From assembly GCF_009914755.1 (NCBI RefSeq), contig NC_060939.1: DNA of 64,000 nucleotides; one strand, given 5' to 3'. The notes beneath the pieces were generated by a model that was not told the DNA's origin, did no database searches, and saw only the letters and a program-made list of their open reading frames with translations. The stretch comes from the human T2T-CHM13v2.0 reference genome, Homo sapiens. A program made the translations under genes and the position numbers. Shown piece by piece: positions 34,888 through 47,198 of the stretch (the first letter of the stretch is position 1; each line of letters begins with the position of its first letter).

Positions 34888-36422
34888 AATCATTAGGGTT
34901 TTCCACATATAAGGTCATGCCATCTGCAAACAGAGATAATTTTACTTCTGCCTTTCAAATTTGGATGCCGTTTATTTATTTATTTGCCTAAATGCTCTGG
35001 CTAGGAATTCTCTGTACTATGTTTAAGAGGAGTGGCAAGAGTGGGCATCCTTGCCTGGTCCAGATTTTACTGGAAAAATTTTCAGTATTTCACCATTGAG
35101 TATAATGTTAGCTATAGACTTTTCATAACTAACTTTTATTGTGTTGAGATAAGTTCCTTCCATACCTAATTTGTTGAGGGTTTATATCATGAAAAATGTT
35201 GAATTTTTTAAAGTGTTTTTTCTGCATCTATTTAGACAATCATGTGATTTTTATCATTCATTTTGTCAATAATCAACATTACATTGATTGATGTGAATAT
35301 GTTGAGCCATCCTTTTCTCCCAGGGATAAATCTCACTTGGTTATGGTGTATGATCCTTTTAATATGTAGTTAAATTCAGTTTGGCAACATTTTGTTGAAG
35401 ACTTTTTGCATCAATGTTCACATGCTATTGACCTGTAGTTTTGTTTTCTTGTGTTGTCTTTGTCTGCACTGGAATCATGGTGATGCTTGCCTCATAAAAT
35501 GCATTTGAGTGTGTTCCCTTTTCTTACATTTTTTTAAAAGGAGTTTAATAAGAATTGAGGTTAGTTCTTCTTTGACTGTTCGGTAAAATTTATTTGTGAA
35601 GCCGTCTTGTCCTGGGCTTTTCTTTGTTGGAAGGTTTTCCAAATTATTATTATTACTGATTCAATCTCCTTGTTTGCTATGGGTCTGTTCAGGCTTTCCA
35701 TTTCTTCTTGATATCAGTCTTCTTAGGTTTTATGTCCCTAGGAATTTATCCTTTTCTTCTAGGTTATCAAATTGGTTGGCATATAACAGTTCATAGTAGT
35801 CTCTTATGATCCCTTTTTATTTCTGTGGTATCAGTTTTTATGTCTCCTCTTTCTGATATTATTCAGTCTTCTCTATTTTTTTCTTAGTCTAGCCAAGGAT
35901 TTGTTGATTCTGTTTATCTTTTTAAAAAAACAAATCATAGTCTTTTAAATTTTTGTCTGGTATTTTTCTATTCTCTATTTTATTTGTTTCTGTTTTCATC
36001 TTTATTGTTTGCTTCCTTTTGCTAACTTTGGGCTTAGTTTGCTCTTCTTTTTCAAATTCCTTGAATGTAAAGCTGGGTTGTTTATTTGAGATATTTCTTC
36101 TTTTTTATTGCTTTATAGACATTTATTGCCATAAACTTCCCTCTTCATATTGCTTTTGGTTTATTCCATAAGTTTTAATATGTTGTGTTTTTGTTTTCAT
36201 TTGTCTTGAGATATTTTCTAAATTTTTCTTGTTTTTCATTTATACATAATAATTATACATAATTAAGGGTTATATGTGATATTTTGATACATACATGCAA
36301 TGTATAATGATCAAATGAGGGTAATAGGATATCTATCACCTCAAACATTTATTCTTTCTCTGTGTTGAGAATACTCCAGATCTTCTCTTCTAGCTGTTTC
36401 AAAATGTACAATAAATTATTGT

Positions 36423-42640: not shown

Positions 42641-43904
42641 ATTTTGAATTTTATTTAATGCCTTTTCTGCATCTATTGAGAAAATCATGTGGTTTTTATC
42701 CTTAGTTCTGTTTATGTGATGAATCACATTTATTAATTTGCATATGTGGAACCAACTTGCAACCTGGGGATGAGGCCTACTGGATCATGGTGCATAGGCT
42801 TTTTGATTTGCTGCTGGATTTCGTTTGCCAGGATTTTGTTGAGAATTTTTGTACTGATGCTTGTTAAGGATATTGGATGTCCTTTATGTCCTTCTCTTGC
42901 CTAATTACTCTAGCTAGGACTTCCAGCACTATATTGAATAAAAATAGTGAAAGTGGGCATTCTTGTCTTGTTATAGATTTCAGAGGAAAGGCTTTCAACT
43001 TTTTCACCATTCAGTATGATTTTAGCTGTAGACTTTTCATATGTGGCTTTTATTGTGTTGAGATATGTTTCTTCTATATACAGCTTGTTGAGAGTTTTAA
43101 TCATGAAGCAATGTAAATTTTATAAAATGTTTTCAGCATTTATTTAAACAATCATTATGTCTTTTGTTCTTCATTTTGTTAATGTGATATATCATGTTCG
43201 TTGATTTGTGTATGTTGAACCGTCTTTGAATTCCTGGAATGAATCTCACTTGATCATGACAAATGTTCTTTTTAATGTGTTGTTGAATTTGGTGTGCCAG
43301 TATTTTGCGGAGAATTTTTTGTATCTATATTTATCAGGAATATTGGCCTGTAGTTTTGTTTTTTGTTGTATCCTTATCCTTATCTTTTTGCTGTGTCGTT
43401 ATCTTTTTTGTTGTATCCTTATTTGGTATTGCAGTAATGCTGGCATTGTAGAAGGACTTTGGAAGTATTCCCTTCTCTTCAATTTTTTGGAATTGTTTGA
43501 GTAGTATTGGTACTAGTTCTTTAAATGTTTAGTAGAATTCAGCACTGAAGTTGTCAGTTCCTGGACTTTTTTTCTTTTAATGGGAGACCTTTTATTAGTA
43601 CTTCAATGTCATTACTTGTTATTGGTCTGTTCAGGTTTTCTGTTTCTTCATGGTTCAGTCTTGGTAAGTTATATGTGTGCAGAAATGTATTCATTTCTTT
43701 CAGGTTTTCCAATTTGTTGGCATATAGTTGTTCATAATAGTCTTTAATGATCTTTTGTGTTTCTGTGGTATCAGTAGTAATGTCTCCTTTTTATTTTTGT
43801 TTTAATTTATTTGGTTCTTCTCTCTCTCTTTTTTTTTTTTTTTTTACTTAGCTAAAGCTTTGGTGATTTTGTTTATCTTTTCAAAAAAAAAAAAACAAAT
43901 TTTT

Positions 43905-46546
43905 GAGTTTCTGGAGAACTGAACACATAGAGGTTCCCAGAGAGTGGCATGCCCATGGAGGGCATGGAAGCTCTGAATCCCTTCCGTCAGACCTAGCTTA
44001 TGCACCCTTTCATCTGTGTCTTTTTAATATCCTTTATAATAAATCAGTAAACATAAATTGACATTTGGGTGACCAAGATGGGACCTGAAGCAGGCTTCCT
44101 TTGACTTCTGCTGCTTCTCTGACAGCTGGCACCCTGGTACAGGCATGGGCTGTTTTTGTCCAGCTGAACCTGTTGAAGGTTGCAGTAGCCTTTGTAAACT
44201 TTCAGGAGGCAAAGGGGACACTTTCCCTTGGACCATGTAGTTTTGGCACTGTGAGTAGGACACCAAAGCCATTCTGCTTGAAGCTGCAGTGAAGGGAACT
44301 CAGAACCTGACAAGTCAGCAAAAGGAAATTCATAGAAAGAATATTGACAAGTACTTGTGAACACAGATTTCTCATAACTTTCAAGATAATACCATTGGAA
44401 TAGGTAAAAACTTTCAGGACTTCAGTTAAAAAGCTGATGTGGGCCTGGTGTGTGGCTCATGCCAGTAATCCTAGCACTTTGGGAGACTAAGGCTGGTGGA
44501 TCACTTGAGCCCAGGAGTTCAAGACAGCTTGGGCAACATGGCAAAACCCTGTCTCTACTAAAAGTAGAAAAATTAGACAAGCATGGTGTCCCATGCCTGT
44601 AGTCCCAGCTACTTGGGAGGCTGAGGTGGGAGAATTACATGAGCCCAGGAGGTGGAGATTGAGCTGAGGTGAGCTGAGATTCCGCCATTGTACTCCAACC
44701 TGGACCACAGAGCGAGACTCTGTCTCAAAATCATAATAATAATAATAATAATAATAATAGTAATAAGAAAAAGTTGATGTGCTTATGAGGATTGCTAACC
44801 CAACATCAAGCAGAACAAAAGTTAATTACATGGGACTGAACTGATAGAAGACTGAAATGCTTTTTATGACTTTTTTGGTTGAAACATTACTGATTCTTTT
44901 TATATTTTGTTTTCAGAGCCAAATACTTTTTTTTCTTTTTGAGGTATTTATAGCTTATAGCAATTGGGTAAAGTAGAGTTTTGTGAGCAAAATTAAAACA
45001 TTTGCCTTTCTCTTGACCTGATTTCTCCAAAATTTGGGAATTATTTGAGTGTTCTTATTTTATGGCAATATAGATATTTTCATAAGTTCAATAAGAATCT
45101 GTTTTCCCTGACATAATGACTGGAATGACACATTTTTGGATATGACCAAACTGCTTTGAGGGAATGAAATTGACTTTATAAGACCAATAGACTTGGAGAA
45201 AGACTGGCCTGGTACATTATCTACATGGTTCTCTTACAAGATTCCTGACCTTACAGTAAGAAAAGAATATCACATTCTGACAGGCCCAGGAACCTCAAGA
45301 TAATTAGGGACCTTGAGAAGACAGGAATTCACTCAATTTGTATAAGTATTACAGGCAAAGTCTAATGGTGAATTCATGGCTTGTCTTCCCAGCCTCAAGA
45401 GGCTTTGAAAGTCTAATCTGAAATTTGTTATGAAAAAGCTCCAGCAAAGCCAACTTACAAAGCTGTCTTTAGGGCTAATCACTATTCTTGTTGCATTTTG
45501 TACAAATTAGCAGGTCAAATGTCATATGGAAACTTATTTTACAAGTAAATTGGTCCTACTAAGATTTCCCTTTGGTAAAAAAATGGGGAACTAGAGAAAG
45601 AAAAACTGTTTCACAGGAAATTATATACATTTCTTATTAGATTCTAGCCCTGACCACTGTTTCTGAGTTTTTATTATTTTCCTACAATTTGGACTAAACT
45701 CTGAATTATTTCTTGGTTACAACAAATCTCTAAAGAAGAACCTGGATTTAATTTTCTTCATGATGTTTTCAGTTGGCTTCCTAATGAAACTCGTCTTTTT
45801 GTTTTTTTCATTCTTTCATACAAATTCTCTTTTTTGCTTATAATCCTTATATATTACTTCTTCCAAGAAAACTAAAATGATGGCATTTCCAAATACTACA
45901 GATGATTCAACAGGTGATAAATCAATGATCTGACTGAGGTCTCATTCTTTGCCACTCTGTGATGCCATCCTAATTTTACTTTTGAATGCTCTTAAAATAA
46001 AAATTCCTCACTGAGACTTCTCCTCCTTCCCTCCTCAGTGTGAGACAGGACTATCAGAAGTGAGCTTTCTGACACTCAGATTTTGATCAGTTATTTCAAA
46101 AATAAAGATTTTGCTCAAAAGGGGGAAATGAGAAATAAATCTTTAAATTATTAGGCTCAGAAAAGCATTTAAATTGTAATAGCAGTCAAGTCTCACTCCC
46201 CCTTGAGTGAAATAATTACCTCTTGAAGTCGCCTGCTATGTAGGCTTTAGACTAACTGACAGCAAGTAGCCATACAATGCCATACACACTATCGTTGAAC
46301 AATGGATAGACAATTGGTTAATACCAATGTCATTTTGTAAACCAATGAGAATTGCTGATGAATAACTTTGGTAATCACCAACTCTCCTGATTCATCCTTT
46401 GTTTTCTTTAAAAACTTGAGTCTCTCGTTTGTTCTCTGGAGCACTCCCCAAGACAACTTGGAAGCACGTCCTGGGTTACAGTGCTAAATCTTTGTGCTTG
46501 AATAAACTCTCTTTAAACTAAAACACAAAGCAAAACGAAACAACAA
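43905..46546 (+). mobile_element. Retroposed spliced ERV transcript: MER21A-type 5' exon + MER4-group leader and internal sequence + 3' LTR cut at its poly(A) site
   Basis: MER21A piece 43905-44056; LTR end attgaca 44057-44063; PBS tgggtgaccaagatgggac 44066-44084; PPT aaaagggggaaa 46117-46128; LTR from TG 46129; AATAAA 46501; A-rich tail 46520-46546. Confidence 0.7.
44442..44767 (+). mobile_element. AluJ-type with (AAT)n tail
   Basis: TSD aaaaagctgatgtg/aaaaagttgatgtg. Confidence 0.9.
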
Positions 46547-46701
46547 TGATCTTTTATATGGTTTTCTTTGGTTTCAATTTAATTTTTTTCTGCTCTAATG
46601 TTTATTATTTTTTCCTTCTAATTATTTTGCATTGGCTTTGTTCTTGCTTTTCTAGTTCCTTGAGGTGTGTCATTGGGTTATTTGAAGTCTTTCTACCTTT
46701 T

Positions 46702-47198
46702 TTTTTTACCTGTAAAATAAGTTTATCGGTGGTAACATGATATAATTTACTCCTGATATCTGATGTTACAAACTTTAGGGTCCTTGAGATATGCAGCATC
46801 CTTGGATGTAACTGGCAGAAACCCCATTATTTGAGCTCTCTTAATTGCTTTTGTGATTTCTTTCTGTTTCTTCCCACAAAGACCTGTTTTGTGCCTTCCA
46901 CAAATGCATCCAACAAATGGAGAAATAAACTGGGACGCTGTACATTCTTAAAATCTACCTGCTTTCCACACAAGATACATTTCTTAAGGGCTTCTTTATA
47001 AGAATTTTCCATTGGAATGGGCAGGTCCTCATTGCTGGATATCTGTTTATATTGTGAACAACCTCTTCTCCATAGCACCATATGAGTCCTGGGATGTGTA
47101 AGGCTAACAGCAGCCATTACAAGGTGTGTCAACTTCTTCCTCCCCAGACCACTGCAAAGAGCAACTATAGTGGCCATGGTTCCACATTCCTCCACTGG
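46702..47198 (-). pseudogene. MRPS18C: MRPS18C (mitochondrial ribosomal protein S18C) processed pseudogene; former CDS 47177-46747
   Basis: [42 protein letters not shown]...EDLPIPMEN...[16 protein letters not shown], frameshift, then ...[38 protein letters not shown]; intronless; poly(A) remnant; TSD ttctacctttt at 46691 and 47199. Confidence 0.95.

What the first reader, a model, noticed from the sequence alone, without database searches (positions are those of the whole stretch)
43905..46546. Fossil cDNA of a doubly spliced MER21A-promoted chimeric ERV transcript
This block has mRNA rather than proviral architecture. Seen in sequence: it opens abruptly inside a MER21A-type LTR at gagtttctggagaactgaacac, jumps at 44056 to only the last 7 nt (attgaca) of another LTR, then has a PBS. 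A ~260-nt leader jumps at ...gacaagtcagcaaaagg (44325) to 3' internal sequence, then a PPT and a different 3' LTR that stops ~14 nt after AATAAA (46501) and runs into a degenerate A-tail. From memory: the MER21A-driven placental CYP19A1 exon I.1 transcript begins at the same motif (GAGTTTCTGGAGGGCTGAACAC). MER21A continues ...aaacgtaa|GTAAGT at the first jump, MER4-group LTRs end ...AG|gttgaca, and MER4-group leaders read ...gcaaaagg|GTAAG at the second jump. Inference: a MER21A LTR at some source locus drove a transcript that spliced into a downstream provirus, used the viral donor, was polyadenylated in the 3' LTR and was retroposed by L1. That requires germline or early-embryo expression. 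Processed ERV copies are well known for HERV-W; I do not know this chimeric type as described.
Basis: partly seen in the sequence, partly recalled or inferred. Interest (0 to 1): 0.85.

Follow-up and report, generated by a model that had tools for sequence, protein, structure and literature searches.

The report
Retrocopy of a spliced chimeric ERV transcript
This 2.6-kb block in human chr15 is an old DNA copy of a spliced RNA that began in one retroviral promoter and ran into a different endogenous retrovirus, so it preserves an ancient germline transcript but shows no sign of a present function.

Summary

- **5' exon:** 43905-44056 is 152 nt from the middle of an abundant LTR about 800-900 nt long. 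The LTR at the expected CYP19A1 distal-promoter position belongs to the same family. The block starts 28-30 nt after a TATA-like box. It ends where family copies read GT.
- **First junction:** the next 7 nt match the end of the 3' LTR's own family, which reads ...ttttAG|gttgaca in 9 of 10 copies.
- **Second junction:** 44325/44326 lies exactly at the conserved viral donor (AGG|GTAAGA in 10 of 15 leaders). The acceptor has a pyrimidine tract, but its AG is one base off in 8 of 10 copies.
- **3' end:** the LTR stops 14 nt after AATAAA, about 33 nt short of its natural end, and runs into a 26-nt A-rich tail.
- **Insertion site:** a degraded duplication of about 13 nt at a TTTTC|AAAA site in an old L1.

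No sibling copy or source locus was found.

Corrections: the "PPT" lies inside the LTR, and the leader is composite with an unresolved seam.

L1-made copies of spliced ERV mRNAs are already known (HERV-K rec). The foreign LTR first exon is the new feature. Interest is moderate.

The parts
43883..43904 (+). A-run, then the left copy of a degraded target-site duplication (acaaattttt, 43895-43904). The presumed L1 endonuclease site TTTTC|AAAA lies at 43882/43883.
   Evidence: Both flanks belong to one old L1 segment. On two independent L1 copies the left flank maps up to the A-run and the right flank resumes 14-16 nt later. The unaligned ends of both flanks match that same gap segment.
43905..44056 (+). 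Exon 1: 152 nt from the middle of a MER21A-type LTR, running from the predicted transcription start to a GT donor. It contains AATAAA at 44038-44043.
   Evidence: 729 candidate matches, the 40 scored at 75-81% identity for this segment. The start motif was found in 30 of 31 copies, and a TATA-like (C/T)ATAAAA begins 28-30 nt upstream in 15 of those 30. GT follows the end in 8 of 14 copies that keep the terminal TAA/CAA. The LTR runs on about 200-300 nt past this point.
44057..44063 (+). attgaca: the last 7 nt of an ERV1-type LTR, which is the start of exon 2.
   Evidence: The family of the window's own 3' LTR ends ttttAG|gttgaca in 9 of 10 assessable copies. A second LTR family, seen upstream of the same PBS-like stretch in relatives, ends cttttgttaaca with no AG (7 solo copies). 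The window's 7 nt fit the first family at 6/7 and the second at 5/7.
44064..44095 (+). ttt, then a PBS-like stretch and the first bases of a leader.
   Evidence: Homologous to the sequence directly after an LTR end in L014 (z 11) and L023 (z 6.4), and in L088, L089 and L090. 31 of 36 loci scored match no further than the last base or so of that LTR.
44096..44150 (+). Seam: a stretch with no detectable homolog.
   Evidence: Only the window itself matches 44057-44200 in the genome. Alignments to relatives are no better than shuffles.
44151..44243 (+). Stretch weakly homologous to the end (U5-like part) of the 5' LTR in related proviruses.
   Evidence: BLAST and gapped alignments reach back to 44154 in L012 and L021. 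Scores exceed shuffles (z 2-4) in 7 of 19 loci.
44244..44261 (+). Second PBS-like 18-mer (tggcactgtgagtaggac).
   Evidence: The same 18-mer, with 2 differences, directly follows the LTR end + tttc in L032. It lies in the region conserved among the 19 leader loci.
44262..44325 (+). Leader ending at the viral splice donor. The exon ends ...gcaaaagg.
   Evidence: 34 genomic loci match the leader. Similarity stops within 1 nt of 44325 in 14 of 15 loci, and 10 of 15 read GTAAG/GTAAA immediately after.
44326..46095 (+). 3' internal proviral sequence downstream of a splice acceptor, about 1.43 kb of its own sequence, interrupted by a later Alu insertion. No open frame is preserved.
   Evidence: 1738 candidate matches, main hits at 69-77% identity. 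Intact copies read tttgctttttcttcAAGG|aaattcATGg at the junction: of 10 informative copies, 6 read AAGG, 2 AAGA, 1 AAAG and 1 CAAA. The longest stop-free stretch is 58 aa.
44442..44767 (+). Later Alu insertion with an A-rich tail, flanked by a 14-nt duplication (44428-44441 and 44768-44781, 13 of 14 identical).
   Evidence: Read directly from the sequence. Alu-like matches in many loci.
46096..46520 (+). 3' LTR (U3-R only) of a different ERV1-type family, cut at its poly(A) site. AATAAA is at 46501-46506.
   Evidence: 214 candidate matches at 72-82% identity. All 10 assessable copies continue about 29-35 nt beyond the 46520 equivalent, to ...gttgaca or a decayed form of it. The start near 46096 was placed by eye from 9 of 11 copies that begin TGAGAAAG... 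next to unrelated flanks.
46521..46546 (+). Degenerate poly(A) tail, 26 nt and mostly A.
   Evidence: Sequence. It replaces the LTR's U5.
46543..46555 (+). Right copy of the degraded target-site duplication (acaatgatctttt). Its first bases overlap the tail.
   Evidence: It maps to the same L1 segment as 43895-43904.

Best explanation
The block is a processed retrocopy: an L1-made DNA copy of a capped, spliced, polyadenylated RNA.

**Inferred history**
1. At an unknown source locus, transcription began at the TATA-directed start of a MER21A-type LTR.
2. The RNA ran 152 nt, past that LTR's own AATAAA, to a GT donor 13 nt further on.
3. It was spliced to an AG acceptor 7 nt before the end of the 5' LTR of a downstream ERV1-type provirus.
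4. It continued through the PBS region and leader to the viral donor (AGG|GTAAGA).
5. It was spliced to an acceptor about 1.4 kb before the 3' LTR.
6. It was cleaved and polyadenylated 14 nt after the 3' LTR's AATAAA.
7. L1 endonuclease and reverse transcriptase then inserted a full-length copy at a TTTTC|AAAA site inside an old L1 in the germline. An Alu inserted into it later.

**Shown:** the homologies, the position of every boundary relative to family copies, the truncated LTRs, the A-tail and the uniqueness of the arrangement.

**Inferred:** splicing as the cause of both junctions, the geometry of the source locus, L1 as the agent, and germline expression of the source RNA.

The copy looks inert today. 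It has no ORF and no annotated gene, and it lies in an intron of LINC02346.
For: - **5' end:** the block starts 28-30 nt after (C/T)ATAAAA in 15 of 30 family copies. The family continues about 350-450 nt upstream.
- **Junction 1, donor side:** GT follows in 8 of 14 copies that keep the terminal TAA/CAA. These include GTAAGT- and GTAAAT-type sites.
- **Junction 1, acceptor side:** a pyrimidine tract plus AG|gttgaca in 9 of 10 copies.
- **Junction 2, donor side:** GT directly follows in 10 of 15 leaders, in the context AGG|GTAAGA.
- **Junction 2, acceptor side:** a 14-nt pyrimidine tract plus AAG, within 1 nt of the junction, in 9 of 10 copies.
- **3' end:** 14 nt after AATAAA, where 10 of 10 copies continue about 29-35 nt. 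A 26-nt A-rich tail follows.
- **Insertion site:** the two flanks are adjoining parts of one L1, with a duplicated segment of about 13 nt next to a T-run/A-run boundary.
- **LTR structure:** there is no complete LTR at either end and no short retroviral-type duplication.
- **Precedent:** L1-made copies of spliced HERV-K rec mRNA, with boundaries at the viral SD/SA, a poly-A tail and a TSD (PMC4351823, passages read).
Against: - The acceptor AG at junction 2 is one base off in 8 of 10 sampled copies and exact in only 1. The two sides also share 4 nt (aagg), which a microhomology-mediated deletion would produce too.
- Junction 1 lies 13 nt after the first LTR's AATAAA, which is where that LTR's own poly(A) cleavage would fall. 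The GT could therefore be part of a GU-rich downstream element rather than a donor.
- No source locus and no sibling copy was found.
- The duplication at the insertion site is degraded. One copy lacks about 3 nt and the sequence is low-complexity.
- The leader contains a seam (44096-44150). Compared with two relatives it lacks 1.0-1.35 kb, with no clear splice signals at the seam.
- Only 7 nt identify the 5' LTR. The LTR family found upstream of the same PBS-like stretch in relatives has no AG at that place.
Confidence: 0.85

Rival explanations
1. Same retrocopy, but junction 1 was not made by splicing. The 152-nt piece is a complete short transcript of the first LTR, running from its start to its own poly(A) site. 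It was joined to the 5' end of an ERV RNA by template switching of the L1 reverse transcriptase, as in known chimeric retrogenes.
For: The junction is 13 nt after AATAAA at 44038-44043. In family copies it is followed by a GT-rich stretch (gtgtttccc...) that would also serve as a downstream poly(A) element.
Against: No A-tract separates the two parts. The ERV part begins directly after a pyrimidine tract plus AG in 9 of 10 copies of the LTR family, which is not a natural RNA 5' end. Several copies carry a strong GTAAGT-type donor at the exact spot.
Confidence: 0.07
2. An ordinary nested mosaic: a provirus and an unrelated LTR were trimmed by DNA-level deletions, and the A-rich tract is incidental.
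For: There is 4-nt microhomology (aagg) at junction 2. An unexplained seam lies at 44096-44150. The flanking duplication is degraded.
Against: Four independent boundaries would have to fall by chance on a transcription start, two donor sites, one or two acceptor sites and a poly(A) site. The A-tail starts exactly where the LTR copies continue. The flanks are contiguous L1 with a duplication longer than a retroviral one.
Confidence: 0.04
3. A retrocopy of an RNA with three introns. The missing 1.0-1.35 kb in the leader would be a further intron, running from a donor about 130-150 nt after the LTR end to an acceptor about 60 nt before the second PBS-like 18-mer. This refines the main reading; its 0.3 is the chance that this extra intron existed, given the main reading, and is not a share taken from it.
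For: 4 of 5 relatives carry CAG|GTAAG at that place. 7 of 8 leaders read by eye have gtgAG/gtcAG|ttg at the other place. In L014 and L023 both parts occur in the same order but 1.0-1.35 kb apart.
Against: Homology of 44096-44178 to the stretch before that donor is not significant (z at most 1.8). Homology to the other type reaches back to 44154, past the proposed acceptor.
Confidence: 0.3

Closest known systems
ERVK-30 (2q32.1) and ERVK-31 (5q15): HERV-K(HML-2) rec mRNA copies made by L1 (PMC4351823, passages read)
   Same: A multiply spliced ERV mRNA was copied into the genome by L1. Missing parts are bounded by the viral donor and acceptor. Both have a poly-A tail after a poly(A) signal and a target-site duplication at an L1-type site.
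   Different: Those begin in the provirus's own 5' LTR (one is 5'-truncated), belong to a young betaretrovirus-like group, and exist as two copies with identical junctions. This one begins in a foreign LTR, belongs to an old ERV1-type group, and is a single copy with no ORF left.
HERV-W processed pseudogenes (PMC5537654, abstract and passages; PMC5016936, listing and start of abstract only)
   Same: An R-to-R architecture: the 5' end lies at a transcription start inside an LTR, the 3' LTR is cut at the poly(A) site, and L1 hallmarks are present.
   Different: HERV-W copies are mostly unspliced genomic RNAs of a single family and number in the hundreds. Here the RNA is spliced and chimeric between two LTR families. 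The review calls W the sole HERV group specifically mobilised by L1.
LTR-promoted chimeric transcripts, such as MER21A driving placental CYP19A1 (PMC4419796, passages read)
   Same: An LTR of the same family supplies the transcription start and first exon, spliced to downstream sequence. The start motif is shared with the LTR at C15:49146345-366.
   Different: The downstream partner here is another provirus, not a host gene. From the sequence, and from my recollection of the exon end (not tested), the CYP19A1 LTR uses a donor about 45 nt upstream of the one used here.
Chimeric retrogenes formed by L1 RT template switching (recalled from the literature; no paper read here)
   Same: Two unrelated RNAs are joined in one L1-type insertion.
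   Different: Such junctions carry no splice signals, and the 5' partner ends at its RNA 3' end. Here an AG-flanked acceptor and a GT donor fit splicing better.

Membership tests
L1-mediated processed retrocopy | Segments missing relative to genomic copies are bounded by GT...AG. | tested here: met
   Junction 1: GT in 8 of 14 copies and AG in 9 of 10. Junction 2: GT in 10 of 15. For the junction 2 acceptor, AG is exact in 1 of 10 copies and one base off in 8 of 10.
L1-mediated processed retrocopy | The 3' end lies 10-30 nt after a poly(A) signal and is followed by an A-tail. | tested here: met
   AATAAA at 46501-46506, last LTR base at 46520, and a 26-nt A-rich tail. 10 of 10 LTR copies continue instead.
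L1-mediated processed retrocopy | Target-site duplication of about 7-20 nt at a TT|AAAA-type site. | tested here: inconclusive
   The duplication is about 13 nt, with one copy shortened by about 3 nt, and sits next to TTTTC|AAAA. It was supported by mapping both flanks onto two other L1 copies. The sequence is low-complexity and no empty site was available.
L1-mediated processed retrocopy | An identifiable parental locus. | tested here: not met
   44057-44200 matches only itself. No locus spans either junction or joins the parts. None of the 100 listed start-motif sites, out of 1361, lies within about 50 kb upstream of the 7 related PBS-type loci. At this age a source could be lost or unrecognisable.
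HERV-W-type processed pseudogene (unspliced, own LTR) | The 5' end lies in R of the provirus's own 5' LTR, and the internal region is colinear with the provirus. | tested here: not met
   The first 152 nt belong to a different LTR family from the 3' LTR. The internal region lacks everything between the donor and the acceptor, which are about 4.2 kb apart in one provirus on C4.
MER21A LTR (identity of exon 1) | Homology to the LTR that the literature calls MER21A at the CYP19A1 placental promoter. | tested here: inconclusive
   The LTR at C15:49146345-366(-) shares the start motif and is homologous to the same copies from about -400 to +350. That this locus is the CYP19A1 promoter rests on my estimate of its position, not on an annotation. 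No Dfam or Repbase match was possible.
Intact or deleted provirus, or solo-LTR mosaic | Complete TG...CA LTRs with a 4-6 nt duplication. | tested here: not met
   Neither terminal LTR is complete. The first lacks its upstream half and its last 200-300 nt. The last lacks about 33 nt of U5.

The most novel reading that the evidence does not exclude
This may be the first recognised fossil of an LTR-to-provirus read-in transcript, that is, a chimeric RNA joining two transposable elements. A MER21A-type LTR known as a placental promoter would have been active in the germline or early embryo of an ancestral primate. Its R region would work as a promoter-exon in which a 5' splice site sits on top of the LTR's own poly(A) site, so donor recognition decides between a 150-nt dead-end RNA and read-through into neighbours. 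An ERV1-group RNA outside HERV-W and HML-2 would then have been mobilised by L1. If so, mining for similar R-to-R chimeras could recover ancient LTR-driven transcripts and the otherwise unknowable splice sites of extinct retroviruses.
Probability: 0.45. Interest if true: 0.55.

Novelty: new variant of a known kind. Interest (0 to 1): 0.4.

Why it matters
- A retrocopy freezes an RNA that existed in the germline or early embryo tens of millions of years ago.
- This one records three things about that RNA:
  - It records the transcription start of a MER21A-type LTR.
  - It records a splice donor inside that LTR.
  - It records the donor and one acceptor of an extinct ERV1-type virus.
- It also shows that L1 copied ERV RNAs beyond the two groups usually cited.
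- It has no visible present-day function.
- Its value is as evidence on ancient LTR promoter use and as a template for finding more such fossils.

Tried and rejected
- **Sibling copies:** searches spanning junction 1, junction 2 and the leader found none.
- **Source locus:** none was found. Only 100 of 1361 motif sites were listed, so this test is incomplete.
- **Coding content of the 3' internal part:**
  - My own ORF listing gave nothing longer than 58 aa in the window and no shared frame in 11 relatives.
  - Whether the acceptor is the env acceptor therefore stays open.
- **Discarded run:** a global alignment was misconfigured (negative scores) and was replaced.
- **Seam at 44096-44150:** attempts to place it on relatives gave scores no better than shuffles. 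The third-intron idea is kept only as a possibility.
- **Tools and papers not available:**
  - The 2002 Genome Research paper on HERV processed pseudogenes was not held, so I could not check whether it lists other families.
- **Literature:** five full-text searches turned up no description of a retrocopy whose first exon comes from a foreign LTR. Supplements were not consulted.
- **Not attempted:** dating by orthologous sites (no other primate genome held) and naming of the two ERV1 LTR families (no repeat library held).
Full report
**Setting.** The window is human chr15 (T2T-CHM13). The block at 43905-46546 lies on the + strand, in intron 1 of LINC02346, inside an old L1 fragment. I read 43600-46900. 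I then compared each part with copies elsewhere in the same genome, because no repeat library was available.

**5' segment (43905-44056).**
- A search with 43905-44330 gave 729 candidates. The 40 scored were nearly all matches of 75-81% identity to the first ~150 nt only.
- In 9 of 9 fetched copies the similarity begins at 43904/5 and ends at 44051-44060. The copies themselves continue on both sides.
- Coverage profiles show a family of about 800-900 nt. The window's start point lies in its middle, and about 200-300 nt of LTR lie beyond the window's end point.
- In 30 of 31 distinct copies I could place the 22-nt start motif. A (C/T)ATAAAA box begins 28-30 nt upstream in 15 of those 30. The block therefore starts where a TATA-directed transcript would start.
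- A degenerate 18-nt form of the motif, at up to 2 mismatches, occurs 1361 times in the genome, against 285 for the reversed control.
This is close to where I expect the CYP19A1 distal promoter from the offset between assemblies. That placement is my estimate and is not annotated here.
- The LTR at that site is homologous to the same copies from about -400 to +350.
- PMC4419796 (passages read) lists MER21A as a primate-specific family of 1,921 copies and as the LTR tied to placental CYP19A1 expression. The family name thus rests on the literature plus this homology.

**Junction 1 (44056/44057).**
- I could place the last 27 nt of the segment in 23 copies. Of these, 14 keep the terminal TAA/CAA, and 8 of those 14 read GT next. 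The GT sites include GTAAGT- and GTAAAT-type donors. Three more show a decayed NTAAGT.
- On the other side, the window continues with attgaca, then ttt, then a PBS-like stretch.
- The family of the window's own 3' LTR (214 candidates) ends with a pyrimidine tract and ttttAG|gttgaca in 9 of 10 assessable copies.
- 44057-44095 is significantly similar to an LTR end + ttt + PBS-like stretch in L014 (z 11) and L023 (z 6.4). It is also similar to L088-L090. In 31 of the 36 loci scored the match stops at or within a few bases of that LTR end.
- That second LTR family ends cttttgttaaca without an AG (7 solo copies). The acceptor argument therefore depends on the source's 5' LTR having been of the same family as its 3' LTR, as is expected for a provirus. 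The 7 nt fit that family better (6/7 against 5/7).
- One caveat: the junction lies 13 nt after an AATAAA (44038-44043). That is the likely poly(A) site of the first LTR, and a non-splicing join at an RNA 3' end cannot be excluded.

**Leader (44064-44325).**
- It is not a simple leader. A search with 44057-44200 found only the window itself.
- 34 loci match 44154/44191-44325.
- A second PBS-like 18-mer sits at 44244-44261. Nearly the same 18-mer directly follows the LTR end in L032.
- The stretch upstream of the 18-mer resembles the end of the 5' LTR of those relatives weakly (z 2-4 in 7 of 19).
- 44096-44150 has no detectable homolog.
- In L014 and L023 the two pieces lie 1.0-1.35 kb apart. 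A third intron is possible, because relatives carry CAG|GTAAG about 130-150 nt after the LTR end in 4 of 5 cases. The homology needed to place it is not significant, so the seam stays unexplained.

**Junction 2 (44325/44326).**
- In 14 of 15 leader loci the similarity stops within 1 nt of 44325, and 10 of 15 read GTAAG/GTAAA right after it, in the context AGG|GTAAGA. Another copy, L023, has the GT shifted by one base.
- 44326 onward matches the 3' internal part of a large proviral family (1738 candidates).
- In intact copies the junction point is preceded by tttgctttttcttcAAGG and followed by aaattcATGg. Of 10 informative copies, 6 read AAGG, 2 AAGA, 1 AAAG and 1 CAAA.
- AG is thus exact in 1 copy and one base upstream in 8. 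A single-base difference in the source, or a later change in the copy, would make the site canonical.
- The shared aagg also permits a microhomology reading for this junction taken alone.
- In one provirus on C4 the donor and acceptor lie about 4.2 kb apart.
- No frame survives downstream. The longest is 58 aa, so I cannot say whether this was the env acceptor.

**3' end.**
- The 3' LTR matches its family from 46141 to 46520 by BLAST.
- By eye, 9 of 11 copies begin about 40 nt further upstream, with TGAGAAAG... next to unrelated flanks.
- All 10 assessable copies run on about 29-35 nt past the equivalent of 46520, to ...gttgaca or a decayed form of it.
- The window instead turns into a 26-nt A-rich tail, 14 nt after AATAAA.

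**Insertion site.**
- The left and right flanks are adjoining parts of one L1 segment.
- On two independent L1 copies the left flank aligns up to the A-run and the right flank resumes 14-16 nt later. The unaligned flank ends, 43895-43904 and 46543-46555, both match that gap segment.
- This fits a duplication of about 13 nt, now degraded, beginning in an A-run next to a T-run, as L1 endonuclease sites do.
- An Alu with a 14-nt duplication (13 of 14 identical) inserted later at 44442-44767.

**Uniqueness.** No other locus spans either junction or joins the parts. The arrangement is therefore not a repeat family. No source locus was found either. Since family copies differ from the window by about 20-25%, a source would be hard to recognise.

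**Comparison with what is known.**
- L1-made copies of spliced ERV mRNAs are in print. Two HERV-K(HML-2) rec mRNA copies have boundaries at the viral donor and acceptor sites, a poly-A tail and target-site duplications (PMC4351823, passages read).
- HERV-W processed pseudogenes share the R-to-R architecture (PMC5537654, abstract and passages).
- What I did not find in five full-text searches is a retrocopy whose first exon comes from a foreign LTR.

**Verdict.** The corrections are:
- the PPT call is wrong;
- the leader is composite;
- the acceptor at junction 2 is one base off in most copies;
- a non-splicing origin for junction 1 is possible;
- the claim of novelty is smaller than stated.

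The block is a well-preserved single fossil with no sign of present function.

Noticed in passing
window 46647-47196 (-): The annotated processed pseudogene MRPS18CP5 lies about 100 nt downstream on the opposite strand, in the same old L1. A T-run at about 46699-46708 may be its tail. If so, two independent L1-type insertions sit within about 150 nt of each other in an A/T-rich L1 stretch.
   Followed up: no
window 44428-44781: An Alu lies inside the retrocopy, with an (AAT)n-rich tail and a 14-nt target duplication that is 13 of 14 identical. That duplication is far better preserved than the retrocopy's own, so the retrocopy is clearly the older insertion.
   Followed up: partly
L084 (G000:C15:49144845-49147866), minus strand: This LTR carries the start motif recalled for CYP19A1 exon I.1. 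About 30-100 nt after the motif it diverges strongly from other family copies. It has a GT (cgc|gtatgt) about 107 nt after the motif, roughly 45 nt upstream of the donor position used in the window's retrocopy. That this GT is the exon I.1 donor is my recollection and was not tested.
   Followed up: partly
L082/L083 (G000:C14:79651775-79651849): The 22-nt start motif of the MER21A-type LTR occurs twice, 53 nt apart, in one copy. This suggests a local tandem duplication around the transcription start.
   Followed up: no
L014, L023, L088, L089, L090: These belong to a small group of related proviruses; one search found 7 loci with this internal sequence. They share the PBS-like stretch seen at window 44064-44095. 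A canonical donor CAG|GTAAG lies about 130-150 nt after the LTR end in 4 of 5. In L014 and L023 a second PBS-like 18-mer, leader and donor follow about 1.1 kb later, which suggests a recombinant or nested proviral lineage.
   Followed up: partly
window 35660-35934: A second fragment of the same L1 region lies on the same strand about 8 kb upstream, at 73% identity to the flank of the retrocopy. I used it as an independent reference for the insertion site.
   Followed up: partly
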